64,000 bases of DNA, taken from NCBI GenBank assembly GCA_965112155.1, contig OZ218098.1. One strand, 5' to 3'. Below are positions 2,568 to 61,822 of this stretch, in pieces. Position numbers and translations under genes: made by a program. The stretch comes from Podarcis liolepis (Eukaryota). Position 1 is the first letter of the stretch, and each line of letters opens with the position of its first letter. The notes under the pieces were generated by a model. It saw nothing but the letters and a program-made list of their open reading frames with translations, had not been told where the DNA came from and did not search any database.

Positions 2568-2745
2568 GGAGGAAGGGCCTTAGCCCAGTGGCGCAGCACA
2601 TAAATGCAGAAGATCCCAGGTTCACTCCTTGATATGTAGGGTCAGGTAGCAAGTGATGGGAAGAATCTCTGGTGGCCATCCTGGGAGCCACCAGAGCAGA
2701 CAATTCGAGGTGTACTTACACTCTGACTGGTATAATGCAGTTTCT
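2568..2745 (+). mobile_element. tRNA-derived SINE (Squam2-like), decayed
   Basis: A/B-box-like head GGGCCTTAGCCCAGTGG...GCAGAAGATCCCAGGTTCA; same family as 17460, 35925, 47680 and 55878. Confidence 0.55.
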
Positions 2746-5334
2746 GGCATTATACCAAAACCCACAAAGCCAGCAATCATAAAAGACTGAATGAAACCAG
2801 GATAAATACACTATACCAGCACCCCACCTCTTCCTTTTCCCTCTTGCAACTTTCTGTTCATTTGGTCTCTCCCATTAGACCGAATCTGCTCCACTGCTCT
2901 GAGGAAGAAAGCAATACTAATTGTTAGCTACTGTTACTGGGATTGCACCATGTGCCTGACCTCCAGCTGACTGACTCATGGCAAGATAAAGAGGTGGGAC
3001 GGGGCACAGTGATGGCGAGGTTGGCGCACTGCTGGTGGAGCCAGTCTGGCACGCCTGCTGGTGTATTTGCACCAGTGCCTTGAATCTCCCCCTCCCCTTT
3101 CTGACACAGTGCAGCAACTCAACTGGGCGGAGGTCCGGTGAACATCATAGCCCCACGACACCGTCAGCAAAATATGTACATTGGAATGGGCTGGGTCGAT
3201 GTTGTTTCAGTGCTAGCAAGACTGACACGATATGGCATTGGCTGCTCAGCTTAGCCTTAGCAACAGCAAGGAGAGAGTGTAGCGACAAGGCCATGGATCT
3301 CTGGGTGTTGGCAGCCAGCCCCACCCTGGTGCTGATGCTACAGTGATAACAGAACAGCCATGGTGTATTGACTTCCAGGAAATGCTCCTTCCCACTCCAC
3401 AATGGTGCACATTACCAGCAACGATAACAGCTCCTCCTTCCAGATTTACCTCGTAATCACAGAATTATCAGTTGCCCTCAGATGCCCATGATATATACAT
3501 TTGTATATACACTGCATTTTTGTCGCCTCTCCTTACAAATCAGCGGGTTCTGTGTTTTCAGTTAAGCCCTTGTTTCTCTGTCCAGGACTTTGTAAAACAG
3601 GCACAGGCATTCAGCCCAGTGTTTGTGCAGGAGGGTCGATTTTTAATCCGCGTATACAGGTAAGGAAGCTTCTCAGCAACAGGCCACCTAGGGATGTTGT
3701 GGGAGCTACTTTCCGAGAGATTATTTTCAAGAAATACGCAGAACGAATTCACTGGGGATGCTAAAAGATACTGGGTAAGTAGCTTTATGGCAGAGGGTTG
3801 AATTGATGACTTGTTAGCTCCCTTCGCCTGCCTCTGTTCTCTTTGTCTGCCTCTATTCTCTTTGTCTCTCCACCCCCTCTGTGTGCAGACCAAGGAGCTC
3901 TTGTGGCAGGAAGGGGGTTTATGGCCATGCTTCCTAAAATCGTAAAATAACAGGGCCCACATTCAAAGTCCCTGTGTGATCAATGAAATCTTTCCCAGAT
4001 GTGCCCAGGCGACATGCGCTTTCAATATATGTCCAGGTAGGTTGGAAACACAATGCACCCACTGCTCACATCATAAGCTTTGTAACCAATCCCTGTGACG
4101 CCAGCGGGCATGCATAAACTCCCAGTATGTGCAGAATAGGAACAGAATCGCTTGGGGAATATCAGAGGCAGAAACCCCACCAAGCAACTGCGTCGTCTGC
4201 CCACCGCCTGTAATATGCAGAAAACAACTCTCAATCAATAGTATATAACACTATCTTTTTTAAGATATTGGACCCTTGGAGAGCAGATTTATATGGACAA
4301 ATATGAATCCCAGTCCACAACATAGACTAAGTTAGGTATCAGGGGGCAACTGCGGGATGTGATAGTACACAGCCTTCCGTACTGGGTCCTATTATTCATG
4401 CGCGCCTTCGAGAATTATTGGACTAGTACATATTGATTTTATTTTTATTTTTACTTAGGAACTTTTTTCTTTTTTCTTTTGCAGTCAGCAGGACACTCTG
4501 AGAAAAATTCCAAAGTATCAGTAAAAAAAGCAAAGCCTAGCCTAGCTTTTTCATGAGACTGTAAGTTTGTTTAAAGCTTTGTGTTGGGGGGAGGTGGTGA
4601 GTGCCCTTATTCAGCTAGTGTCGAAACAGCGAATGACACAGTGAGCAAATGTAGGTAATGGTCTCCCGACCCACAAGTTCATTTCAAATGCTGGAATAGG
4701 GCTCATTTTTTCAAATATTGTGCATGTTTGTGGGTGCAGGGAAGGGGGAGGGGGAAGAGAGAGAATACAAATTCTGGTGTGATTATGGGACATTCAGAAC
4801 AAACAACAAATATTAAAACCTATTCTGTCCAAGCAGGTAAATCAAAGCTACCTAATGATGCAAAACCTGGAAGTGGTTGCTGATGATGCCAAATCAGGGG
4901 TGAGAAACCTGTCAGGAGCTCGTCCTACACTCGAGTAGGACCCTGGTAGTGACACATGCCCGACTGGCATGTTCTCTCCCTCCTGGTCATTCGTTTGGGA
5001 GCTTCACAAGCTTCCTTCTGCCCGAACATCACAGCGACTGATGCCAACAGACACCGGCACACTTAGGGATCTGCAGAGCCTTCGCAGTTTGCGTAACAGA
5101 CCTCAACAACTCAGCATTTTGGCTAATCTACTTTATTTGCATATAAACACACACAGAGCACTGCAAGATGGCTCCCTCTTTCTCTAGCATCAAACAGCAA
5201 AGAGAAAAAGAACAAAGGACAATAGTCCCACTACACAGAACACAGTAACACAAACATCCTATCTCTGTCACTTCCCACTCTGTGGAGTCAGAACATATAC
5301 CATCATGTGATAGACAACAATCCCATGACTGCAA

Positions 5335-8058: not shown

Positions 8059-8215
8059 NNNNNNNNNNNNNNNNNNNNNNNNNNNNNNNNNNNNNNNNNN
8101 NNNNNNNNNNNNNNNNNNNNNNNNNNNNNNNNNNNNNNNNNNNNNNNNNNNNNNNNNNNNNNNNNNNNNNNNNNNNNNNNNNNNNNNNNNNNNNNNNNNN
8201 NNNNNNNNNNNNNNN
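8059..8215. other. Assembly gap (157 N)
   Basis: Run of N characters. Confidence 1.
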
Positions 8216-11186
8216 TTGGCATTGTATCTTATGAAATGAAGGTATTAATCAAAATCAGATAAACAAAGCAAGGAGGAGAGAGGAGGAGTAGGCAGAGGAG
8301 GCGGAGGAGGCAAAGAGCCTCAACCCTACCCTTCTGCCTCAGTAATTATTGTCAGCGGCTTCTGGTCTGTTCACCCCTGTGCCAAGTTAGTAATGTATCC
8401 CCGTTTGGCCGATTCCAGATCTCCAGCAACACCTGTGGGAAAGGCTTTAATTAATCCTCTGTTACTGTTGTAATTGCACTATCCTAAGGGGAAAGTCCTA
8501 CTAGCCAGGAATATTATTTTAAACATATACTGTAAACAACATTTGTCCTCGGGAGGGTTCTGTTAATACTATGGCTTTGACCCTTTCATTGCTGCGTGCT
8601 TAAAGGAGCTCGGTTTTCTAAATTACTGATAAAACAAAAACAAAAAGAGGATCTCCCCCTTATCAATGGAAACATCTCTCAGCTGCCTCCATGTGAGTGG
8701 GTGGAACATCAGAACCAGCCCACTGAGCCCAGATGTATCCATGTTTATTTGGAACAAACCCCCCACTGATTCCAAAGCCATAGGGGTGAGGAACTGGATC
8801 CTGAGTGCTGGCCAGATCCTTATCTCATTCGCACACATACTGTGGCCAACTTTGACAGGTGGGAGGGGCTGCTCACCTGTCGGTTGCCTGCTGTCGTGAT
8901 GACATCCAGGGAGGGTGACATTAGGTGACCCTACTTTGTGCCAGCAATCAGCTGATTGTTGGCCCTTGCAATGTGTTCTTTGCTTTTCAACCACAATGAT
9001 CAGCTGATCATCAGTTCTTGCAAGCCTGGTGCCTGCCAACATCTGGCATGGTGAGCTTGGCTTGACCAAAGCAGCTGGGTGGGCTGAATGGGGGAGCCTG
9101 GAGGTTCTCCACTGCTGCCACAGAGCATGTCAGTCATTAAGTCAGTGAGCATTGGACTGAAGCTTGAGCTGTCTTGTGCTCATGGGCAACGTGACATTAT
9201 TAAATGCCCACACACAAACGGGAAAGCCTGTGTGGATTCCAACCCTTTCCTTTCTTGTTGGACTGAGTTAAAAATAAGAGCATTGCTTCATTTATCTAAT
9301 CGGCTCACTGGATACTGAGAATCTCTAGAAGATTCAGATCCCACCACAGTAATCTAGATTCATGACTGAATAGGAGGAGCAGGGGGTTCATCCGAATGAA
9401 AGACAGTGAAATGGGAAAGGCTGAGAAAATTTGGGAGGGTGGGAAGAGTGATATCATTTTAATATGTCTGTGGTGGACCACAAGTTGTGTAATGCAAAAT
9501 TCAGCCAGAGGACCTGATATGCTTTAAATGTGCCTATTCCAAGTAAATTGCAAGCATCAACACGGACTATTCCATTCTTATTATCGTCAGTGCATTTATT
9601 TGCTTATATGTTCTCTGGATTCCAATATACTCTAGCTTACGCAGGCACACTTCTTTTCTTTTTTTTAAAGTGAATTGTGTTTGCAGGTAAACACAATGAA
9701 CCAGATCTACTTATCGGTCCACCTTGATTAAATTGTAGCTTGCAAATAAACTCTATAAATGTATATACACAGCATGACACCAACTCATTTTCTGCAATGA
9801 GAGGATTTGAGGTTTTTAGAGACTAGGCCTACGCTTTTTTACAAACTTAGAATGCTATCCAAAGATAGTCATACTTAGCACATTTGAGGAGCGTTTGCAG
9901 GGGGTATGGGGGAAAGAGAAAGGGAAGTCTTGCTACCCTAGCAAAACTTATTACACTTGCTTCTGCTCATGCAAAAAAGTTATGTGAATCTGGCCCTTTA
10001 CATTTTGGCACAGTTTATAAATAAGTTCAGGCCTGTCCTGAAGCAGCAACTCCTTTACTGTTCCCAAAATTTACCTCCCAGAAGCAGGAAAGTGCACGCA
10101 GAAAGGGAAAGGTTGTCCTTCAGGTCTTCTTTAGGCTCTTAAGCCTCGCCAGCAGGAACTTTTCTGTTCAAAAATCCCTGGGAGTTACTGGCATTTGTGT
10201 GGATTTGGAATACCTGTCAAGCTCCTGGGATCTTTATAATGGCAAGTTCTGTCAGGAGGGCTTTGGGGGTCTAACAGAGAAGCAGCCTTCTCTTTTGTCC
10301 ACCTTGTTGCTGCTGCTGGAACATAGTTTTGGCCTCATGGTATTCTCAATGACCTCATCTGTAGCACAACTGGTTACAAAATTTAAAATTTTGACCTGAT
10401 TGAAAAATGTGAACCTGGTTTGTGTGTGTGTGTGTTTGGTTTTTTGTGGGTTTTTTTAAGGAGAACATGTTTCAAACTTTTGTATCTGAAATCCGTAGGG
10501 TTGCTTTCTATCCAAAGAAACACTGAAAAATCTTTGGCTTTCAATCCGCTGTAAATGTACCCTGATTTTCTTGACTTGTTCAGGTGCAACTGATTTGTAA
10601 AAGGAAAGAGCTAGAAAACCATTGCTGAAACCAAAAAGTTGGGAGAAGATCAGGGCTTTGTTTCTCTTCTAGAAAAAGATATGAAGCTTTAAGAGAGGGA
10701 GGGGGTGAGGGAATGGCCAAATTGATCCCCTCTGTAGCTGCTGTTGCTCTGTCTGTGGTGAATTATCTCAAACTTCATAAGTGTAAGTAAAATGGGGATC
10801 CTTGAAGTCTGAGTCACTTTATTTCCACAGAATGTAACCATATTTCAATTTGCACTTGAATTAATGGGTGACTACAAAGCTTTGAAAGCCTTAAAGAGCA
10901 TGTCTCACCTATTATAACACATTTTATTAATCAGCATCTTGCATTAAGAGAGACCATCCAGCTAAGCATCGCTATCTTTACCAGAGGGAAAGGGTGCGGT
11001 GAGCGGTGGGGGAGAAGAAGGAACTTTGCATACAGTGATCACAGACCAAATTGGTTAAGGCAGACACATTTGGAAATTCGTCAGTGCAGCTTAGAAAATC
11101 TGCTTTCAGTTTGAACCATTTCTGATAGCTAAAATTAGGGGTAGATGTACTTTTCTTTATATGGAACAGTATATATATTTTTTTAA

Positions 11187-13051: not shown

Positions 13052-15121
13052 ATATTTTAAGATCAGAAACAGAGGCTGTGTGTGCAGAGACTTGTGGGGT
13101 GGCACAATGGACACCACAACTATGAGGTGGGGAAGTGCCAAATATTTGTATCACAGAGGACACCGCTGAATTTTTTGACCCCAAAGTCCACCACTGTCAG
13201 AAAAGAAGGCTGGAGTTTGAATGCTCATTTGAAGCCCTCCCCGTTCCTTCTCACTGCATTTTGGGTCAGTGCCATTTTCTCTCAAATGGACTACACAATT
13301 TGTCCGTGATGGTGTGTTGAGGCCCATGTGTGAGGCCCAGGACAATTTCCCCTGTTGCTCCCCGCCTAGGTCTGGCTGAAGGAGAGGGAAATTGACTCAC
13401 TCACACCACCCAGGGAGGCTATAGCTGAGCTGGGATGTGACCCCAGGGGAACCCAACTGTAGTTGGAGAACCAAACTCTTTAAAGGCAACCTTACTGAAT
13501 CCCCCAACCCCCCCCCCCATCTTTCTGAACACAGAATATAAGGCGAACAAGAACAATCGAATTTAGTGGCAGTATTTGTTTTACATTTTATTTTTTTCAT
13601 TTTTTTTCATTCGGGGAACCTTCAAATATAATCTGTGTTCAGGGTTTCAAATTAAATTACATCCCTTAAGCTTTCCAGATACCCCATCAGAAGCATATCA
13701 CTAGACAGTATAACTTTTCTGCAGCATCTTCAACTGAAGCACAGAGAGACGGGGGGAAGGAGGGAGGGAGGGAGGGAGAGAGAGTATTGTCAACCATCGA
13801 CTAGTAGTTGAAGCCTCTTCTGTCGGGCAAATGGACTTCATTAGATGAGCAGTCCATCAGCGCAAACCTTTTGGGATGACAAAAATTCCCACTGAATTCC
13901 CAATTTAGCTTTCCACCAACGTTGCCAACTCTCGCTCGCATGGTTTTGGCAGGCTTACTGACAAAATTTGTGTTGGTAGAGACAGAAAATTGAAACCCAA
14001 GTCCGGCCCCTGCCAATCCAACACACCCGCAAAACAGTTCGGCTTCCAACATCTGATCAGTGTTTTGAAGGGACAGCTAAAAGGCTACATGTGAAAGGGA
14101 TCCATGCTGTTGTTTTCTGCCAAACTGCAGTCCACCCTGGAACGGGGAGGGCAATATCAGTTAGATATACTTTGCACATTTATTTTGGAATGGATTGTGT
14201 TAGTTAGGACAAAAAAAAAGCAAATGCAACAATTCCCATTGATAAATGCCCTTGAGAAGTTTGAATGTCCTTGAAACTTCTATGTTCAGAATCGGCAGAC
14301 TGTGTGCATGAGTGTGTTCTGTATGTATATTAAGCTTTCCACATAAGATGTTGGATCAGGTGATTAAACATCCTTAGGATCTCCCACCACCACCTTTAGG
14401 ATTGCATCCTTAGGGTCCCTCCAGATATCTACCTTATGGTGCATTCATGATTATTTTTGCTCATGATTATGATTATTTTTGCTCTAACCATAGCACTAGG
14501 ATTCCAACTCAGATGCACAGAAATATTTTCATTATTTTCGCCTGTGATGGTATCTTGGTGGTTAGTGATCAATTTTTATTCTTTCTAAGCAAAATGTTTC
14601 AGACAAAATGTAATGGACACAAGATTAGCAATGTCCACTTTTTTTTTGTAATGTATAGTTTCTATCAGAAGAAGCTACTTTTTTGTTGTTGTTGTTTTGC
14701 TACCATGTTTAGGGAATGCACTGGTCTTTTTAAAACAAAAATTAAAAACAGGAAGGTATATTCCTCACAGGATTGCAAAAGAAGAAGGCTCTCCCAGACC
14801 CTCCAGTCTGCCCTGATGCCACCACGAGTACCCAGGTGGGCACAGCTGGATGAGACCAACTTTACCCTGCTCACCCATCCAGGTCTCAGTGGTACAGATC
14901 TGCCTCCTCATACACAGTCAGATCATGGATGCATGAGGTCTTACTCTGAGCCAACCTGGCATTCAGCAAAAGCAGCCACAGAACCATGGTGACTTTCTGA
15001 TTTGAGGGGTAATAGCTCAAAGTAAAACCAATTAGTAAGCCCACACTAGGTTGAGAGTTCGTTTCACAATGTATTCAGCAGGTTGCACCACAATAAGTAC
15101 CTGAGAAGAACCTGGAAATCT

Positions 15122-15453
15122 CCTGAAGGAACGTCTCCACCCCCATCGTTCAGCCTGGACACTGAGGTCTAGCTCTGAGCGCCTTCTGGCGGTTCCCTCA
15201 CTGCGAGAAGTGAAGCTAAAGAGAACCAGGCAGAGGGCCTTCTCGGTAGTGGCACCCACCCTGTGGAACGCCCTCCCACCAGATGTCAAGGAAATAACTA
15301 TCTGACTTTTAGAAGACATCTGAAGGCAGCCCTGTTTAGGGAAGTTTTTAATGTTTGATATTTTATCGCTTTATTATTAATAATAATAATATTCTGTTGG
15401 GAGCCGCCCAGAGTGGCTGGGGAAATCTAGCCAGATGGGCGTGGTATAAATAA

Positions 15454-15509
<56 letters not shown>
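15122..15509 (+). mobile_element. L2 LINE 3' end with (TTA)n tail
   Basis: Encodes RAFSVVAPTLWNALP; 3' stem GCCGCCCAGAGTGGCTGGGG...CCAGATGGGC; (TTA)n tail. Confidence 0.88.
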
Positions 15510-17459: not shown

Positions 17460-17646
17460 GAACATAAGAAACTGCCTTATGCTGAATGAAACCATTGGTC
17501 CATCTGATTGGTATTGTCTACCTTGACCAGCAGTAGGGTTTCAGACTGGGCATGTGTCCCAGTCCTCCATGAATATGGCAGGGGTTGAACCTGACACCTT
17601 CTGCAAGCAAAGCAGCTGCTTCCCCACTGACCTACAGTCCTTTCTA
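17460..17646 (-). mobile_element. tRNA-derived SINE (Squam2-like), host of a Sauria SINE insertion
   Basis: Minus strand GGACTGTAGGTCAGTGGGGAAGCAGCTGCTTTGC...GGTTCAACCCCTGCCA head and CTTATGTT tail. Confidence 0.6.
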
Positions 17647-18030
17647 GGGACGCGGGTGGCGCTGTGGTCTAAACCACTGAGCCTCTTGGGCTTGCCGATG
17701 GGAAGGTTGGTGGTTTGAATCCCCATGACGGGGTGAGCTCCCATTGCTCTGTCCCAGCTCCTGCCAACCTAGCAGTTCGAAAGCACACCAGTGCAAGTAG
17801 ATAAATAGGTACCACTGTGGCGGGAAGGTAAATGGCATTTCCATGCGCTCTGGTTTCCATCACATTGTCCCGTTGTGTCAGAAGTGGTTTAGTCATGCTG
17901 GCTGCACGACCCGGAAAGCTGTCTGTGGACACACGCCAGCTCCCTCGGCCTGAAAAGCGAGATGAGTGCTGCAACCCCATAGTCACCTTTGACTGGACTT
18001 AACCCTCCGGGGTTCTTTTATCTTTACCTT
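17647..18030 (+). mobile_element. Sauria SINE (subfamily B)
   Basis: Full-length head to ACCTTT tail; 14-bp TSD TACAGTCCTTTCTA (17633) / TACAGTCCTTCCTT (18031), 2 mismatches. Confidence 0.93.
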
Positions 18031-19851: not shown

Positions 19852-20228
19852 GATGCAGGTGGCGCTGTGGTCTAAACCACTCAGCCTCTTGGGCTTGCTG
19901 ATCAGAAGGTTGGCGGTTTGAATCCCTGTGACGGGGTTGAGCTCCCGTTGCTCTGTTCCAGCTCCTGCCAGCCTAGCAGTTCCAAAGCACGCCAGCACAA
20001 GTAGATAAATAGGTACCGCTGCAGCGGGAAGGTAAATGGCATTTCTGTGTGCTCTGGTTCCGTCATAGTATTCTGTTGCTCCAGAAGCGGTTTAGTCGTG
20101 CTGGCCACGTGACCTGGAAAGCTGTCTGTGGACAAACGCTGGCTCCCTCGGCCTGAAAGTGAGATGAGCAACACAACCCCATAGTCACATTTGACTGGAC
20201 TTAACCATCCAAGGGGTTCTTTGCCTTT
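19852..20228 (+). mobile_element. Sauria SINE (subfamily B)
   Basis: Same diagnostic segments as the 17647 copy; 11-bp TSD ACCGTTCAGAT (19844) / ACCATTCAGAT (20229). Confidence 0.93.
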
Positions 20229-20680
20229 ACCATTCAGATCCTTCCATGGTGCTAAGAGTTTACGAAGACAAGGCAGGGTCAAGCATTGGGGCCAGAAAGT
20301 CCAAGCAGAACCTGATGCTATTTATGTATTTAATTCAACAATTGGCTTAACACTGTAGTCTCTAAGCAGTCAGGTGAGAACCAGAAGCTTCAGTAGATGG
20401 GCCATTGACCTGATTCAACAGTCACCTCTTACGTTCTTAAAAGATGTAACAAGGATAAAAGTGAAAATTAACCGTGAAACCAGGAAACTTTTCTGTGCCA
20501 GCTGAAATAAAATGGTTGTTGCCAAGCACTCAAGCTCCAAAAAGGAGAGGACTTGTTAAGTGACCCCCCTCCCCTCCCAGAACTGTCTTTCTGAACAGCT
20601 CTCAGCACCCTTAACAAACCACAGCTCCCAGAATTCTTTGGGGGGAGCCATGACTGTTGAAAGTGGTATCACAGTGCTTT

Positions 20681-20994
20681 ACCTGAAGGAATGTCTCCAC
20701 CCCCATTGCTCAGCCCAGACACTGAGGACCAGCTCTGAGGGCCTTCTGGCGGTTCCCTCACTGCGAGAAGCAAAGTTACAGGGAACCAGGCAGAGGGCCT
20801 TCTCGGTAGTGGCTCCCGCCTTGTGGAATGCGCTCCCACCAGATGTCAAAGAAATAAACAACTACCTGACTTTTAGAAGGCATCTGAAGGCAGCCCTGTT
20901 TAGGGAAGCCTTTAATATTTGATGAATTATTGAATTTTAATATTTTGCTGGAAGCCGCCCAGGGTGGCTGAGGAAACCCAGCCAGATGGGCAGG

Positions 20995-21057
<63 letters not shown>
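20681..21057 (+). mobile_element. L2 LINE 3' end with (TTA)n tail
   Basis: ORF 20560-20922 C-terminus QRAFSVVAPALWNALPPDVKEINNYLTFRRHLKAALFREAF; tail stem and (TTA)n. Confidence 0.9.
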
Positions 21058-21058
<1 letters not shown>

Positions 21059-21564
21059 TACATGTGTGGTGTGAATGTGGCCTTTGTCTCTACCTTACAC
21101 ACCAGACAGTTCCTACCCTTAGAAGTTCATGTGGCAATAAGGAAGCAACATAATACAGATTGCCTCTGCACTGCCCTCGCCCCCCCCCCGTCTTTACTAG
21201 GTAATCAAATCAAATTTATTTATTTGCTTATATCTTTCTTTATAAGATTTATATCCCCCACTTCAATCTCAGCTTACAACATAATATAAAACAATATCGC
21301 ACAGTAAAGGCAGGTTGCAAGTTCAGTGTCTGAGGTTCACCCCCTCATTCTCAGGGGCAGAAAATTTGGAGCTGTGTTCTGGTGATTTCTCTGTGGGGAA
21401 GAGATAATTCTAAGTAACTTTTAGGAGACAGAGGCTTACCTGAAGGACAGTGTGTGAGGGGGGGATGAGTTCTTCTGCTTTGTGTTTTCGCTTTTGTTTT
21501 GCCATTATTGCAAGCAACTAAAGCAGCCCCCACCCCATGCACAATAATATGCCATCGGCAGGAT

Positions 21565-47011: not shown

Positions 47012-48281
47012 GTATGTTATTTTTTTGCTGTCGTTGCTGCAGTTGCGATGGGGGAAAGGCACCCCTGCTATACGCATTCGCCTCACAAAGATGCTTAAAG
47101 TTCAGAAGCCCCATCTACCTTGGCAGATGTCGACCGCAGAGTAGAGCCCCCTGTAAAGGCAGGGAAAGTCCTAGCCTGGTTTATTAACATAGCTTCATTA
47201 GAATGCACTGAGTAGCCTTCCATTTCCTCTTCTTCCTTTTCCCAAGCAAGAAAACATCACAGACGACTTTCCACCACATGTTTGTTAATATAAAAATTAC
47301 CATATCAATAACATGCCATTACCAGAGGAAGGTTGTCCGTCTCTGAAGGTTTCACATCATTGTCAGGCCAGATCAGAAGCACGTCTTGGTCCAGGGTGGT
47401 TTCCCCTTCTTCCTCTCTTCTTTTCTGCCCCCCTCCCCATCTTCAGTTTGCCACAGCACGGTTTTTCTTTTTTTCTTTTCTCCTTGGCATTAAGTGCAGC
47501 ATCGAGGCACTCAAGCCATGTTGAACCCACAGATTGGGTGGGGAGAACTCCCAGCTAAACCTCCTGGTGGAAAATGAAGAGCTTCCAAGCTCTGAACTAG
47601 AGACTGTGGGACACTCCAACCTTTCTGGTGGGGGAATCTGAATTGTCCCACCAAATGTCCAACTTTACTAAACTATTGTAATAGGAAGCTGAGTGGCTTT
47701 GTGTGCAGAAGTGTCCAGGTTCAATTATGCAGGTAGGGGTTGGATAGAACTCTGGCTACAGAGCTACGGCAAGTCAGTGTAGACAATACTGAACCAGGTG
47801 GGCCAATGGGCCAACTCAATCTAAGACAGTTTCCAAGTAGGGCTATCTTTGAAGATGGTTGAGAAGCTTCTGATGGTTTAAATTTGAGCTGTCAGAATGT
47901 TTGGGAGAGCCAAGTGGCAGTAGCTAATGGTGGGGCGGGGTAGTGGTGCTCACCTAATCACCTCCTAATCTCCTAATCACTGGGTTTCTGCTGCCTGCCA
48001 GGAAGGAGAGGAGGAAGAGAGAGGTGGTGGGGGATGTGGCACAGTGCAAATGCACCAAGGGAGCCAATCTGTTCTTTTGATTTGCACCATGTTGACCTTC
48101 CTCTTGTCCCACCCCTTCCCCTCTCCTTCCCAGTAAGCAACAACAACACTGCTGTTGGGAGGCCAGGTGAGCACTGTTGCCCTACCACTGCTACTGCTAG
48201 GCAGTGTTGATGATATTGCATGAGTTTTGCATCAGTTACCAAACTCAGATAGCAGTTTAAGATGCTACTACTTTCCTTTAA

Positions 48282-48630
48282 GGGATGCGGGTGGCGCTGT
48301 GGGCTAAACCACAGAGCCTACGACTTGCCAATCAGAAGGTCGGTGGTCTGAATCCCTGCAACGGGGTGAGCTCCCGTTGTTTGGTCTCACCTCCTGCCCA
48401 CCTAGCAGTTCTAAAGCACATCAAGTGCAAGTAGATAAATAGGTACCACTCTGGCGGGAAGGTAAACGGCGTTTCCATGCACTGCTCTGGTTCGCCAGAA
48501 GCGGCTTAGTCATGCCGGCCACATGACCCGGAAGCTGTACGCCGGCTCCCTCGGCCAATAAAGCGAGATGAGCGCCGCAACCCCAGAGTCGGTCATGACT
48601 GGGCCTAATGGTCAGGGGTCCCTTTACCTT
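48282..48630 (+). mobile_element. Sauria SINE (subfamily C, POM-like) inserted in an old L2 fragment
   Basis: Full length; perfect 13-bp TSD TACTTTCCTTTAA (48269-48281, 48631-48643). Confidence 0.95.
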
Positions 48631-50372
48631 TACTTTCCTTTAAATTCCTGAAGGCTTTGGGTTCAGGTCATTTGAAGGAAACGACCTTAAGATCTGTTAC
48701 AAACCAGGAGCAAGGGCACTTTCAGGTGCCAAAACTCTCAGCTATTTGCTGAGTGTTGTAGTGCTGCGCCAAAAAATCTCTCCTGTGCTTTCACCACCAC
48801 CATGATTCCTGGTCAAAATCGTCAAAGGAGCAGGGATCTGGGTGAGATTCTTATGAGTGGGATGTGGAGGTTTTGTTGCAATTACAGAGAGGTGTTTGTG
48901 AGTGTCCTTCCTTACATTCAACAAATCATCTACTCACACTCTGCAACAGTATCAGGTGCCTGGTCTTACAGAAGAGGTCGGCCAATAGTTTTCAGGGGTT
49001 TGGAAGAAGCATAGGCTGGGAATGTTGCAGCCAGCCAATAGCTGATTGGAGGGGGACAGAGGCCAGCTGCTCATATGCTTAAGATAACTTGTCCAAAATG
49101 AAAATATGAAAGGCAACTTAGAAAGACCCAGGATTAAAAAGCAAAACGAAACAGCAGCCTGTTTTGCAGGGCCAAAGAAACCCTGGGTTATTTATTTATT
49201 TTACATATTTATGAATTGCCTATAACCATAGATCTCTAAGCGATTTATAGCAGAGTAAACTACAGAATAACATACGTCATAAATAAGAGAGTAGAGTACT
49301 AAAACTGACCAGATAAAATTAATGTTCCGGAAATGCTTGCTGAAATAAAAAAATATTTTCATGGCACGTCGAAATCCATGCATCTGTTGGCATCTGCCTC
49401 ACCTCACAGGGAGGGTATTCTGTAATGCAGGAAACTACTATGCTTAATACTTCCTTTTGCATAGTGGTTTGATTTCTATTTAGAAAATGGAGGGCAAGAT
49501 TCAGCACAGCGCTACCAACCCCACAACTTGTGGTGTTCTCTCTCATAAGAACTCTACTTCACAAACCCCTCTTGTAAAATCATTTCATCAGTGGCTTCCT
49601 GTTATTAATGTTATTAATCTGGTGTCATTTCCCATGCATTACCCTTGTTTCATTGCTTTTTTCCATTTTATTGTAAGCCTTATTGTGAGGGATTCTCTTA
49701 AAGGCAGGGTAGAAATATGTGAAAGAAGTAAATGTGGTCTTTCTGAAGTCTGCTTCCGTGCCTTGGAGCTGCTGTTGGAGATGGCAAAATTTACAAACCA
49801 AAGCCAGTCAGTGATGCAGGAATGGGGATCCTCTGACCAACAGCCAAGGGGGTCCAATTTGGCCCATGGGGTAATTTCCCACCAACCATGCTCATCTGTC
49901 AACAGCTGATGTCTCCAGGTGATGTGAGCTAATGGGAGGGGGAGGGTTCAATGCTGCTGGGTGCTGAATGCACTGGCAAGCAGAGCCCCTCAAAGAGCAG
50001 GACTGAGTCTTCTAGAAACTTTTTCAGTAGTGTGTTCCCATCATGGTGTTGGACAATTGACAGGAAGGTGGCTTTACTCAGCTGTCACACATGTCCCACA
50101 GGATGTGGGGAGATAAACATCTGGCCTACTTGGACAAAAAAGATGTCCATCGCTAGACTATAGATCCCATTCATCCTTACTATTGGCCTCACAGACTGAA
50201 GCTAGGGATGGATGGACTCTTCAAATCTCCTGCATTCCAGTTTGCAATGAAGACAGGACTAAATCCATCCTGTCCTATCTGTAGGTGGATTTTTAATGGC
50301 TAATTCTTAAAAAAATAAAATAAATAAAAACCAAACAAACAGGAATACACATTAAGCAAACATTTCATGCAT

Positions 50373-50719
50373 AAACGGCCTCGGTCTAGTATACTTGAAG
50401 GAGCGTCTCCACCTCCATCGTTCTGCCCGGACACTGAGGTCCAGCGCCGAGGGCCTTCTGGTGGTTCCCTCACTGTGAGAAGCCAAGTTACAGGGAACCA
50501 GGCAAAGGGCCTTTTCGGTAGTGGCACCTGCCCTGTGGAACGCCCTCCCACCAGATGTCAAAGAGAAAAACAACTACCAAATTTTTAGAAGACATCTGAA
50601 GGCAGCCCTGTTTAGGAAAGCTTTAAAGGTTTAATAGGTTATTGTATTTTAGTGTTTTATTGGAAGCCGCCCAGAGTGGCTGGGGAAACCCAGCCAGATG
50701 GGCGGGGTATAAATAATAA

Positions 50720-50770
<51 letters not shown>
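50373..50770 (+). mobile_element. L2 LINE 3' end with (TTA)n tail
   Basis: Highly similar to the 15122 and 20681 copies. Confidence 0.9.
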
Positions 50771-50771
<1 letters not shown>

Positions 50772-53026: not shown

Positions 53027-53410
53027 AGCACAATTCAAAGCGTTGGTGCTGACCTTTAAAGCCCTAAATGACCTCGGCCCAGTATATCTGAAGGAGTGTC
53101 TCCACCCTTAGCGTTCAGCCCAAACACCGAGGTCCACCTCCAAGGGTCTTCTGGAAGTTTCCTTCACTGAGAGAAATGAAGTTACAGGGAACCAGGCAGA
53201 GGACCTTTTTGGTAGTGGCACCCACCCTGTGGAACACCCCCCATCAGATGTCAAGGAGTTAAAGAACTACACAATTTTTAAAGGACATCTGAAGGCAGCC
53301 CTGTATCAGGCAGTTTTTAATGTTTGACATTTTATTATGTTTTTATATTTACTGGAAGCCCAGCCAGATGAGTGGGATATAAGTAATAAAATTATGATTA
53401 TGATTATGCT
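53027..53410 (+). mobile_element. L2 LINE 3' end
   Basis: CAATTCAAAGCGTTGGTGCTGACCTTTAAAGCCCTA (QFKALVLTFKAL) then the same body as the other L2 copies. Confidence 0.85.
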
Positions 53411-58708: not shown

Positions 58709-58947
58709 AGAAGAAGAGTTTGGATTTGATATCCCGCCTTTCACTCTCTTTAAGGAGTCTCAAAGCGGCTAACATTCTCCTTTCCCTTCCTCCCCCACAA
58801 CAAACACTCTGTGAGGTGAGTGGGGCTGAGAGACTTCAGAGAAGTGTGACTGGCCCAAGGTCACCCAGCAGCTGCATGTGGAGGAGCGGAGACGCGAACC
58901 CGGTCCCCCAGATTACGAGACTACCGCTCTTAACCACTACACCACAC
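58709..58947 (-). mobile_element. Squam3-like (MIR/Ther1-derived) CORE SINE
   Basis: Minus strand GTGTGGTGTAGTGGTTAAGAGCGG head, GGGTTCGCGTCTCC B-box, GGGTGACCTTGGGCCAGTCAC core, (CTT)n tail; CpGs retained. Confidence 0.85.
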
Positions 58948-59203
58948 TTCTGACTCTGACTATGGAGGCAGAACATAGCCAACATGCCTCGTCGACATCC
59001 TCCTCCATGAATTTTTAGAATTCTTTTCTAAAGTCATTCGAGTTGGTGGCCATCACTGTCTGCTGTGGGATTGAGTCCCTTAGGGTATGCACCTGTGTGA
59101 AGAAGGACTTTCTGTTCTGAATCATCCAATGGTCAGCTTCAGCCCACAGGTTGCAGAGTTTGAAAGAGGGAGGAAAGAAATAACATTTGCCTATCCCCTT
59201 TCT

Positions 59204-59494
59204 GTTGTCTTTGTCCATGGAGTTTTCTTGGCAGGGATACTGGAGTGGCTTGCCGGTTCCTGCTCCAGGTGGATCACGTTTGGTCAAAACTCTCCACTAT
59301 GACTTGTCTATCTTGGGTGCCCTGCTCGGCATAGTTCACAGCTTCTCTGAGTTATTCAAGCCCCTTCGCCACAGCAAGGCAGTGAGTTTGACCAAACTGC
59401 AGGAGGCAGAGGAAGACAGGAGTGCCTGGCGTGCTCTGGTCCATGGGGTCACGAAGAGTCGTACATGACTAAACGACTAAACAACAATAACAAC
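59204..59494. mobile_element. BovB insertion with inverted 5'UTR fused to sense 3' tail
   Basis: 59204-59385 is a BovB 5' region on the minus strand (GAGTGKPLQYPCQENSM, cf. BovB GEGNGKPLQYSCLENPM); 59383-59494 matches 61711-61822; 11-bp TSD ATCCCCTTTCT. Confidence 0.85.
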
Positions 59495-60224
59495 ATCCCC
59501 TTTCTCCATCATATGCATAGTTTTGCTAACTTCTGCTGCAGAACATGGACAGTGGTAGGGCCTACCCAGCTGACTTGAAGGCAATGGGGAGGGTCAGCAA
59601 GACAAGCTTTTCCTATCATACAAGCAAGAAAGAACGCCTGAACAGAAGTTGTGCATAAATGAAATGACTGCAGAACTCCCACCTTTTTTTTATTCTTACC
59701 ACTGCCTCCATTTCTGTGTTGTTTCATGTGTTTTTATATCTAGATTGCAATCCCCTTGGGTCTGGGGCCTGTCCTCTGGGTCATTGTAAAGCACCAACTG
59801 CATGGATGGAGAGCCACATTAAATCTTCATCATCTGTTGTTGTTTTTTTGGAGGGAAAATAAGATTCAGAAATGGAAACTGAAGAAAATTCTCAACAGAA
59901 AGTTTGCATCTTCAGTCTGATTTATTTGTTTATGTTCCTCCCCGCTCCTCCAAATGGATAAGTCCTCAGGCACTCCTGATTCCACCACAGAATTCTAAAC
60001 AGAGTATTTGTGCCCAAAAAGCAACACAAACAAGATCCAGGCACTTAGCTTTTACCTCTTGCGGCTGAAACGCTGTGAACCACTTATGAATTATTCCCAC
60101 GAGTAATTTTTGTAATCTTCACCCCTCCTTCCACTCTCCCCCCCCTTTTTTTTGCAATTTCCTTAGCATACCTTGACTATCTATCTGTCTGTCCATCTAT
60201 CTATCTATTTATCTATCTATCTCT

Positions 60225-61291: not shown

Positions 61292-61822
61292 GGGTAGAAA
61301 AGCAATGACAAACCTAGACAGCATCTTAAAAAGTAGAGACATCACCCTGCCAACAAAGGTCCGTATAGTAAAAGCTATGGTTTTCCCAGTAGTGATGTAT
61401 GGAAGTGAGAGCTGGACCATAAAGAAGGCTGACCGCCGAAGAATTGATGCTTTTGAATTATGGTGCTAGAGGAGACTCTTGAGAGTCCCATGGACTGCAA
61501 GAAGATCAAACCTCTCCATTCTGAAGGAAATCAGCCCTGAGTGCTCACTGGAAGGACAGATCGTGAAGCTGAGGCTCCAATACTTTGGCCACCTCATGAG
61601 AAGAGAAGACTGCCTGGGAAAGACCCTGATGTTGGGAAAGATGGAGGGCACAAGGAGAAGGGGACGACAGAGGACGGGATGGCTGGACATTGTTCTCGAA
61701 GCTACCAGCATGAGTTTGACCAAACTGCGGGAGGCAGTGGAAGACAGAAGTGCCTGCCGTGCTCTGGTCCATGGGGTCACGAAGAGTTGGACACGACTAA
61801 ACGACTAAACAACAACAACAAC
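61292..61822 (+). mobile_element. RTE-BovB LINE, 5'-truncated
   Basis: KAMTNLDSILKSRDITLPTKVRIVKAMVFPVVMYGSESWTIKK...RVPWTARRSNLSILKEISPECSLEG..LQYFGHLMRR; TGG>TAG stop near 61467; (CAA)n tail. Confidence 0.96.

What the first reader, a model, noticed from the sequence alone, without database searches (positions are those of the whole stretch)
59193..59505. Bov-B copy with a twin-priming-like 5' inversion: antisense 5'UTR joined to the sense 3' tail inside one perfect TSD
Seen: an exact 11-bp TSD ATCCCCTTTCT (59193-59203, 59495-59505) brackets ~290 bp, and removing the insert restores the host CR1. The right ~110 bp match the BovB tail at 61711-61822 in sense orientation. From recall: the left ~180 bp are the extreme BovB 5' region (the part that contributed to ruminant Bov-A) in antisense orientation. 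The halves appear to meet at a TGA microhomology (59383-59385), and the TSD end CT overlaps the inverted segment. Established: inversion plus TSD plus junction microhomology is the twin-priming signature known mainly from mammalian L1. Inference: an RTE-clade element did this, and either ~3 kb was skipped or the template was an internally deleted, Bov-A-like non-autonomous RNA.
Basis: partly seen in the sequence, partly recalled or inferred. Interest (0 to 1): 0.7.

Follow-up and report, generated by a model that had tools for sequence, protein, structure and literature searches.

The report
Fixed-site twin priming in BovB
This small insertion is one of at least 89 (likely hundreds) in this genome in which the first ~200 bases of the BovB jumping gene sit backwards on its tail and begin at nearly the same spot, likely because the second cut DNA strand starts copying at one fixed place on the RNA, which may explain why this family spawns so many short two-part derivatives.

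Summary
Observation confirmed: an exact 11-bp target-site duplication (TSD) brackets BovB nt 196→13 in antisense, joined by a TGA microhomology to the last ~110 nt in sense. It is not a one-off. Of 90 loci picked by a 5'UTR 21-mer, 41 have this inverted build; in 37 of the 41 the inverted piece starts at nt 180-210, while tails vary (62-805 nt). Further samples repeat this (89 distinct junctions). TSDs flank 29 of 41 (control 7 of 205). TSD ends match the RNA at the start point (22 of 28 by ≥2 nt; null 18%). Sense-fused two-part copies break in the same window (16 of 33). Raw reads of two further organisms show a ~2.2-fold depth drop after nt ~214. Best reading: twin priming, but at a fixed window between two in-frame AUGs, skipping 2-3 kb, unlike L1. 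A Bov-A-like template is not supported. Ten literature searches found no description; two key papers were not held. The scan noted one twin-primed BovB copy with foreign DNA in another genome, not this window effect.

The parts
59193..59203 (+). 5' copy of the 11-bp target-site duplication; its last 2 nt (CT) are shared with the inverted piece (primer microhomology)
59202..59385 (-). BovB nt 196→13 (5'UTR plus first codons) in antisense; inferred product of top-strand priming
   Evidence: 96.7% to full-length copy L066; 97% to L067
59216..59218 (-). ATG at element nt 180-182, in frame with the reading frame that runs into the endonuclease-like N terminus; lower edge of the priming window
   Evidence: ATG positions and frame; use as start codon is inferred, endonuclease motif label recalled
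59383..59385 (.). TGA microhomology at the inversion junction; the same 19-mer junction recurs independently at L002
59383..59494 (+). 5'-truncated sense BovB tail, last ~110 nt ending in (CAA)n-like repeats
59495..59505 (+). 3' copy of the target-site duplication
58950..59192 (.). old dispersed host repeat, left flank (CR1-like by recall), continuing weakly past 59505
   Evidence: 93.6% to L066 nt 2665-3196

Best explanation
The insert is a single BovB (RTE-clade LINE) insertion whose tail and backwards 5' piece were likely copied from the two cut target strands (twin priming), the second strand likely annealing by a few bases inside a fixed ~30-nt window (nt 180-210) of the element RNA. [quoted passage not shown] (2) The top-strand 3' end pairs over 1-7 nt with the RNA at nt 180-210 (window and pairing shown statistically; priming inferred) and is extended towards nt 1 (shown: 69 of 90 listed pieces end at nt ≤9). 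(3) The two cDNA ends join through short microhomology or short added sequence (shown) and are filled in (inferred). Why that window: most likely the 5'UTR is held in the ribonucleoprotein, so that the A-rich, poorly paired stretch just behind it, between the in-frame AUGs at nt 180 and 210, lies next to a reverse transcriptase (inferred, untested). The same entry point, taken by the stalled first cDNA instead, would give the sense two-part (Bov-A-like) copies.
For: 41 of 90 5'-anchored loci are inverted, 37 of 41 start at nt 180-210 (p~1e-69 against uniform). Junction-anchored search: of 10 hits one is the window itself and one a chance match; the other 8 all start at nt 184-206. Subfamily-anchored sample: 39 of 90 classed inverted, 38 ending at nt 187-212 (one of these, L295, is complex; 7 shared with the first sample). 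TSDs 29 of 41 vs 7 of 205 mismatched pairs, 10-16 bp; 23 of 29 begin with A, as reported for reptile Bov-B (PMC13295347, passages). TSD/RNA overlap mean 2.9 nt, 22 of 28 ≥2 nt vs two-sided null 0.77 nt and 18% (p 6e-12); replicate 22 of 27. Sense and full-length copies join at nt 1 with no offset in 15 of 24. Sense fusions break at nt 180-210 in 16 of 33. Exact 21-mer counts drop from 1565 (nt 166-186) to 548 (nt 217-237). Raw reads of two organisms drop 2.3- and 2.1-fold after nt ~214. 5' piece and tail carry concordant subfamily marks in inverted copies (12 of 15 vs 1 of 9 at one tail site, p 0.002).
Against: Subfamily concordance would also arise if a separate RNA of the same, then-active subfamily were used, so cis is not proven. 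One site pair first looked discordant and stayed suggestive (3 of 19 vs 5 of 10, p 0.08, a CpG site). The 5'UTR shows no folding signal above shuffles (z 0.43 for nt 1-250, -0.40 for nt 1-190) and no Rfam match, so protein binding there rests on analogy to R2. 12 of 41 inverted copies had no callable TSD. In the subfamily sample only 6 of 25 sense fusions break at nt 183-203 (7 with the one at 210), a weaker concentration. No listed contig bridges this locus's own inversion junction.
Confidence: 0.7

Rival explanations
1. Same top-strand priming, but on a separate short RNA (nt 1 to ~205-210: a prematurely ended or partly degraded transcript protected by protein or an initiating ribosome) recruited in trans, as U5 snRNA is in antisense U5/L1 chimeras.
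For: Sharp upper edge near nt 208-212. One of 90 loci (L106) is a stand-alone nt 1-206 piece with a possible 9-bp TSD. The window coincides with the start-codon region. Precedent in PMC4476161 (passages).
Against: No poly(A)-derived T run at the start of inverted pieces, so not a polyadenylated short RNA. Start points are spread over ~30 nt and chosen by microhomology. Subfamily marks of both parts agree. Stand-alone pieces are rare in the samples.
Confidence: 0.2
2. Template switch of the first cDNA onto an antisense transcript that starts near nt 200, followed by an ordinary microhomology 5' join.
For: Gives the same orientation and would fix one end; a TATA-like A/T run lies at nt ~198-206 (sequence).
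Against: Pieces end at or next to nt 1 (69 of 90 at nt ≤9, 87 at ≤30) with no donor flank beyond it (junction inserts ≤39 nt), as expected when copying runs off the 5' end of a sense RNA. It does not explain sense fusions in the same window.
Confidence: 0.05
3. The template was an internally deleted Bov-A-like RNA, or an inverted master copy was amplified.
For: Sense two-part copies exist, including a small amplified family (L100, L101, L114) and recurring joints nt ~200-207→~3147 in raw reads. L002 shares the exact junction 19-mer.
Against: 41 distinct junction triples in 41 copies; tail lengths like ordinary truncations. L002 has its own TSD and start point and none of this copy's distinguishing substitutions. 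Seven short sense fusions found by pattern all have different joints.
Confidence: 0.04
4. Two independent insertions side by side, a later DNA inversion, or an assembly error.
For: No read or contig listed bridges the internal junction; the orthologous empty site was not seen.
Against: One exact TSD encloses both halves. Unique-flank contigs from runs of three organisms reach 24-28 nt into the inverted piece (below the tool's 31-nt bridging standard). The same build recurs at 89 distinct junctions with TSDs.
Confidence: 0.01

Closest known systems
[quoted passage not shown]
   Same: Inverted 5' plus sense 3' segment within one TSD of 10-20 bp; microhomology between target end and RNA (2-5 nt in ~70% of L1 cases per PMC2912911); microhomology at the inversion junction.
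   Different: RTE clade, not L1. The second priming site is confined to nt 180-210 and the piece runs to the RNA 5' end, leaving out over 2 kb (median 2.66 kb). From recall, L1 inversions start at variable sites close to the end of the first cDNA. No such adjacent inversion among 90 tail-anchored copies, though a few occur in the 5'-anchored sets (L119, L103, L295).
Antisense U5, 5S and tRNA-half / L1 chimeras (PMC4476161, PMC13174262; passages)
   Same: A 3'-truncated RNA 5' part, primed internally at a recurrent single-stranded region, inserted antisense to a truncated LINE tail.
   Different: Here the captured piece is the element's own 5'UTR and is far more frequent (3 of 90 tails). PMC4476161 states that L2 and RTE form U6 chimeras only by template switching.
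Bipartite non-autonomous RTE elements and SINEs (Bov-A, RTESINE, AfroSINE, Mar1; PMC5786205, main text read)
   Same: 5'UTR piece of about 200 nt fused to the 3' end (e.g. RTE-N2_Lch: 5' 214 bp + 3' 70 bp); sense fusions here have the same build.
   Different: Those are same-orientation consensus families. That study removed opposite-strand hits and calls the reason for internal deletions unknown. Here both orientations arise anew, copy by copy, from one window.
R2 two-subunit model with a 5' protein-binding RNA motif (PMC6895275, passages)
   Same: A 5' RNA segment is tied to the second-strand step; twin priming is suggested there as an aberrant relative of second-strand synthesis.
   Different: R2 has a restriction-like endonuclease and biochemical proof; no binding of BovB protein to its 5'UTR was tested here.
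Inverted pLTR of Penelope-like elements (PMC3846280, passages)
   Same: A recurrent, TSD-flanked inverted terminal piece of fairly fixed length.
   Different: Unrelated element class; there the inverted piece copies a terminal repeat and gives head-to-head palindromes, here it is unique 5'UTR sequence.

Membership tests
BovB / RTE-clade LINE copy | Both halves derive from a ~3.2-kb single-ORF element with reverse transcriptase | tested here: met
   L066 and L067 are ~3.2 kb and TSD-flanked; RVT_1 E 3e-39 in L067. The name BovB rests on recall plus features in PMC13295347; no Repbase or Dfam consensus was available.
BovB / RTE-clade LINE copy | (CAA)n 3' end; TSD of 10-12 bp starting with A after T | tested here: met
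   Tail and 11-bp TSD starting T|A; 23 of 29 TSDs start with A; compared with PMC13295347 and PMC4245944 passages. The T run lies 5-7 nt upstream here, not ~10.
Twin priming (L1-type 5' inversion) | Inverted 5' and sense 3' segments inside one TSD | tested here: met
   (29 of 41; control 7 of 205)
Twin priming (L1-type 5' inversion) | Target 3' end complementary to RNA at the internal priming site | tested here: met
   2 nt at this locus; 22 of 28 and 22 of 27 copies ≥2 nt vs 18% null
Twin priming (L1-type 5' inversion) | Microhomology at the inversion junction | tested here: inconclusive
   3 nt here; 18 of 41 overlap by 1-7 nt, 3 blunt, 20 with 1-39 added nt (BLAST-defined ends, no null computed)
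Twin priming (L1-type 5' inversion) | Inverted segment adjoins the start of the sense segment on the RNA, at variable sites (feature recalled) | tested here: not met
   Fixed window, median gap 2.66 kb: works like twin priming but is not the L1 pattern
Twin priming (L1-type 5' inversion) | Both cDNAs copied from the same RNA molecule | tested here: inconclusive
   Subfamily marks concordant; same-time trans use cannot be excluded
Bov-A-like amplified bipartite element | Same orientation and one shared junction in many copies | tested here: not met
   Antisense 5' part; 41 distinct junctions in 41 copies; exact junction 19-mer only twice in the genome
HDV-like 5' ribozyme of RTE elements | Match to a ribozyme family or nested double pseudoknot | tested here: inconclusive
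   No Rfam hit; folding not above shuffles; pseudoknots not modelled

The most novel reading that the evidence does not exclude
RTE-clade RNPs carry a built-in second priming site: the protein holds the 5'UTR and presents the start-codon region to a reverse transcriptase, so any free 3' end (top target strand, stalled cDNA, rarely the first nick) can enter there. One mechanism would then make inverted copies, Bov-A-like deletions and the raw material of the many bipartite RTE-derived SINEs, and would expose the normal second-strand step of APE-type LINEs.
Probability: 0.35. Interest if true: 0.85.

Novelty: new variant of a known kind. Interest (0 to 1): 0.68.

Why it matters
5' inversions are described as mostly an L1 trait (PMC4245944), and why only a few LINE clades throw off 5'+3' derivatives is stated as unknown (PMC5786205). 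A ~30-nt priming window shared by inverted and sense-fused copies gives a concrete, mutable target for both questions and for how the second strand is started in APE-type LINEs. RTE elements with their native UTRs are being developed as gene-insertion tools (PMC13708176, passages), so a UTR-linked inversion or deletion by-product would be worth screening for. For annotation, such copies are split into two opposite-strand hits and easily miscounted.

Tried and rejected
Rfam scan of the insert: nothing. Folding of the 5' region: not above shuffles; the window is among the more open stretches (5% of 25-nt windows more accessible), but 21 regions of the element are as A-rich, so composition alone does not explain it. 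Genome search with the right flank found only the locus itself. Right-flank alignment to three host paralogs was not significant. Contigs of four runs showed no empty-site joint among the rows listed and none bridging the inversion junction (tables were cut, so absence says nothing). An apparent loss of 5'-tail linkage, which would favour trans, weakened in a larger sample. L238 was a chance pattern match and was dropped; the window's own locus was left out of the first sample. A polyadenylated short RNA was rejected for lack of T runs. An amplified inverted master was rejected. Literature searches returned no paper describing inverted 5'UTR capture by BovB or RTE. Ichiyanagi and Okada 2008 and Ostertag and Kazazian 2001 are not held; Gogolevsky 2008 and Okada and Hamada 1997 were not read; no supplements were opened (those of PMC5786205 and PMC13295347 could show such copies).

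Full report
OBSERVATION. The 11-mer ATCCCCTTTCT stands at 59193-59203 and 59495-59505 and nowhere else in the window. The insert is nt 196→13 of the element on the minus strand (96.7%), then the last ~110 nt on the plus strand; TGA is shared at the junction and CT with the TSD. The flanks belong to an old dispersed repeat; one paralog aligns across a single TSD copy into the right flank (24 of 29 nt, E 0.014), but the right flank alone was not significant. Unique-flank contigs from runs of three organisms reach 24-28 nt into the inverted piece, short of the tool's 31-nt standard; none listed spans the internal junction. The names BovB and CR1 are recalled; the (CAA)n end and A-starting TSD fit reptile Bov-B in PMC13295347 (passages).

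NOT A ONE-OFF. The exact junction 19-mer occurs twice in the genome. The second copy (L002) has its own TSD, starts at nt 186, is 90% identical to the reference and lacks this copy's distinguishing changes. A 21-mer at nt 31-51 has 1000 exact hits. I examined 90 of the first 100 listed (own locus and the last nine left out; 30 with only 1.5 kb flanks): 41 inverted, 33 sense fusions, 4 full length, 8 with 5' part only, 3 other, 1 running off. In 37 of 41 inverted copies the 5' piece reaches to nt 180-210, although the pattern allowed anything above nt 52; tails are 62-805 nt (one 3166). A junction pattern blind to the start point gave 10 hits: self, one chance match, and 8 copies on six contigs, all starting at nt 184-206. 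A third sample, anchored on a subfamily mark at nt 136 (90 of 322 hits), gave 39 classed inverted, 38 ending at nt 187-212 (L295 is complex, L272 a fold-back, 7 shared with the first sample). Over all loci, 90 junctions list a start at nt 180-212; without L295 that is 89, this locus included. Scaling 41 of 90 to the 1000 exact hits gives about 450, and more given divergence (estimate).

HOW COMMON. Of 90 tail-anchored loci (first 90 of 17,308 hits, all in 8 Mb of one contig; three shared with the first sample), 79 are simple truncations, 4 sense deletions within the 3' part, 3 sense 5' fusions, 3 inverted 5' pieces starting at nt 182-199, 1 head-to-head tail, and none a classical adjacent inversion; 3 of 90 has a 95% interval of 0.7-9.4%. 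Exact 21-mer counts fall from 1565 just before the window to 548 just after it. In raw whole-genome reads of two further organisms, depth falls from 2835 to 1250 and from 2804 to 1332 after nt ~214, against a tail peak of ~42,000, so the step is not a feature of one assembly; these reads show the step, not the orientation.

MECHANISM SIGNS. TSDs of 10-16 bp enclose 29 of 41 inverted copies against 7 of 205 mismatched flank pairs. The TSD end overlaps the antisense element by a mean 2.9 nt, ≥2 nt in 22 of 28 (one more copy dropped for a poor anchor), against 0.77 nt and 18% under a two-sided null; replicate 22 of 27. Sense and full-length copies join at nt 1 without offset in 15 of 24. This mirrors the L1 contrast between inverted and full-length copies in PMC2912911 (passages). 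Inverted pieces run to the RNA 5' end (69 of 90 at nt ≤9). All 41 junction triples differ and tail lengths equal those of ordinary truncations (p 0.30), so the tail is an ordinary early-stopped cDNA and no deleted master is needed. Sense fusions break in the same window in 16 of 33, less so in the subfamily sample (7 of 25). The window lies between in-frame ATGs at nt 180 and 210 and is A-rich and predicted open, but 21 regions are as A-rich, and the 5'UTR does not fold better than shuffles. Subfamily marks of 5' piece and tail agree in inverted copies (12 of 15 vs 1 of 9, p 0.002), which fits one RNA but also a same-time second RNA; one site pair leans the other way (p 0.08).

READING. Shown: build, fixed window, TSDs, primer-site pairing, independence, frequency. 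Inferred: priming by the top strand; same RNA; a protein-held 5'UTR presenting the window (analogy to the R2 5' binding motif, PMC6895275, passages). The main rival is a separate short 5' RNA used in trans, like antisense U5/L1 chimeras (PMC4476161, passages; PMC13174262, passages); L106 supports it weakly.

COMPARISON AND NOVELTY. It works like L1 twin priming and meets its TSD and primer-pairing features, but fails the adjacent, variable inversion point (feature recalled), so I file it as a variant. PMC4245944 (passages) found inversions almost only with L1 in human cells. PMC5786205 (parts 1-4 of 5, all main text) lists bipartite RTE derivatives, removed opposite-strand hits and calls the cause unknown. 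PMC13295347 has no occurrence of 'invert', 'inversion' or 'twin'. PMC6007223, PMC5389967 and PMC6765202 (passages) added nothing on this; PMC3846280 and PMC13708176 were seen as passages. Ten searches found no description, but subscription papers, notably Ichiyanagi and Okada 2008 on RTE junctions, were not available and no supplements were read. Earlier scan notes hold one twin-primed BovB copy with foreign DNA in another genome and several fixed-point Penelope cases; these are unchecked leads and gave me the Penelope comparison.

VERDICT. Real; one ordinary member of an apparently undescribed, frequent insertion class. New variant of a known kind; interest 0.68.

Noticed in passing
L100:3462-3750, L101:3449-3735, L114 (minus strand): Three copies with the same build: BovB nt 1-186, a ~41-nt spacer unlike the reference, then the last 60 nt; a small amplified Bov-A-like family, more diverged (81-90%).
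   Followed up: partly
L067:491-498 joined to L067:3438-3439: Recurring sense joints nt ~200-207→~3147 in raw reads of two organisms, and in L108 and L131; a preferred fusion point or a second small family.
   Followed up: partly
L106 (G000:C1:69698411-69698617): Stand-alone BovB nt 1-206 with a possible 9-bp TSD and no tail.
   Followed up: partly
L062, L041, L107, L128, L022 junctions: 20-39 added nt made of re-copied bits of the element's 5' end or of the tail start, suggesting repeated restarts of the enzyme at the junction.
   Followed up: no
L067:2967-3073 in raw-read depth; Tail copy number halves at about 430-530 nt from the 3' end, and many truncations cluster there; resembles the ~500-nt ruminant BovB fragment (recalled).
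   Followed up: no
L119, L103, L295, L120, L094, L272, L232: Rarer builds: near-classical twin priming (L119 at nt 52, L295 near nt 337), an internal inversion plus a sense 5' piece (L103), fold-backs and nested copies.
   Followed up: no
window 58709-58948: A short repeat with an AAG-rich end is nested in the same host repeat just upstream of the BovB insert (SINE-like by recall); a similar one interrupts L272.
   Followed up: no
window 15120-15507, 20680-21060, 50392-50771, 53085-53407 and others: Several copies of another LINE 3' end with (ATT)n tails; further repeat copies at 11182, 17644-18030, 19934-20232 and 48277-48636, Sauria-SINE-like by recall.
   Followed up: no
window 8059-8215: 157 N.
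   Followed up: no
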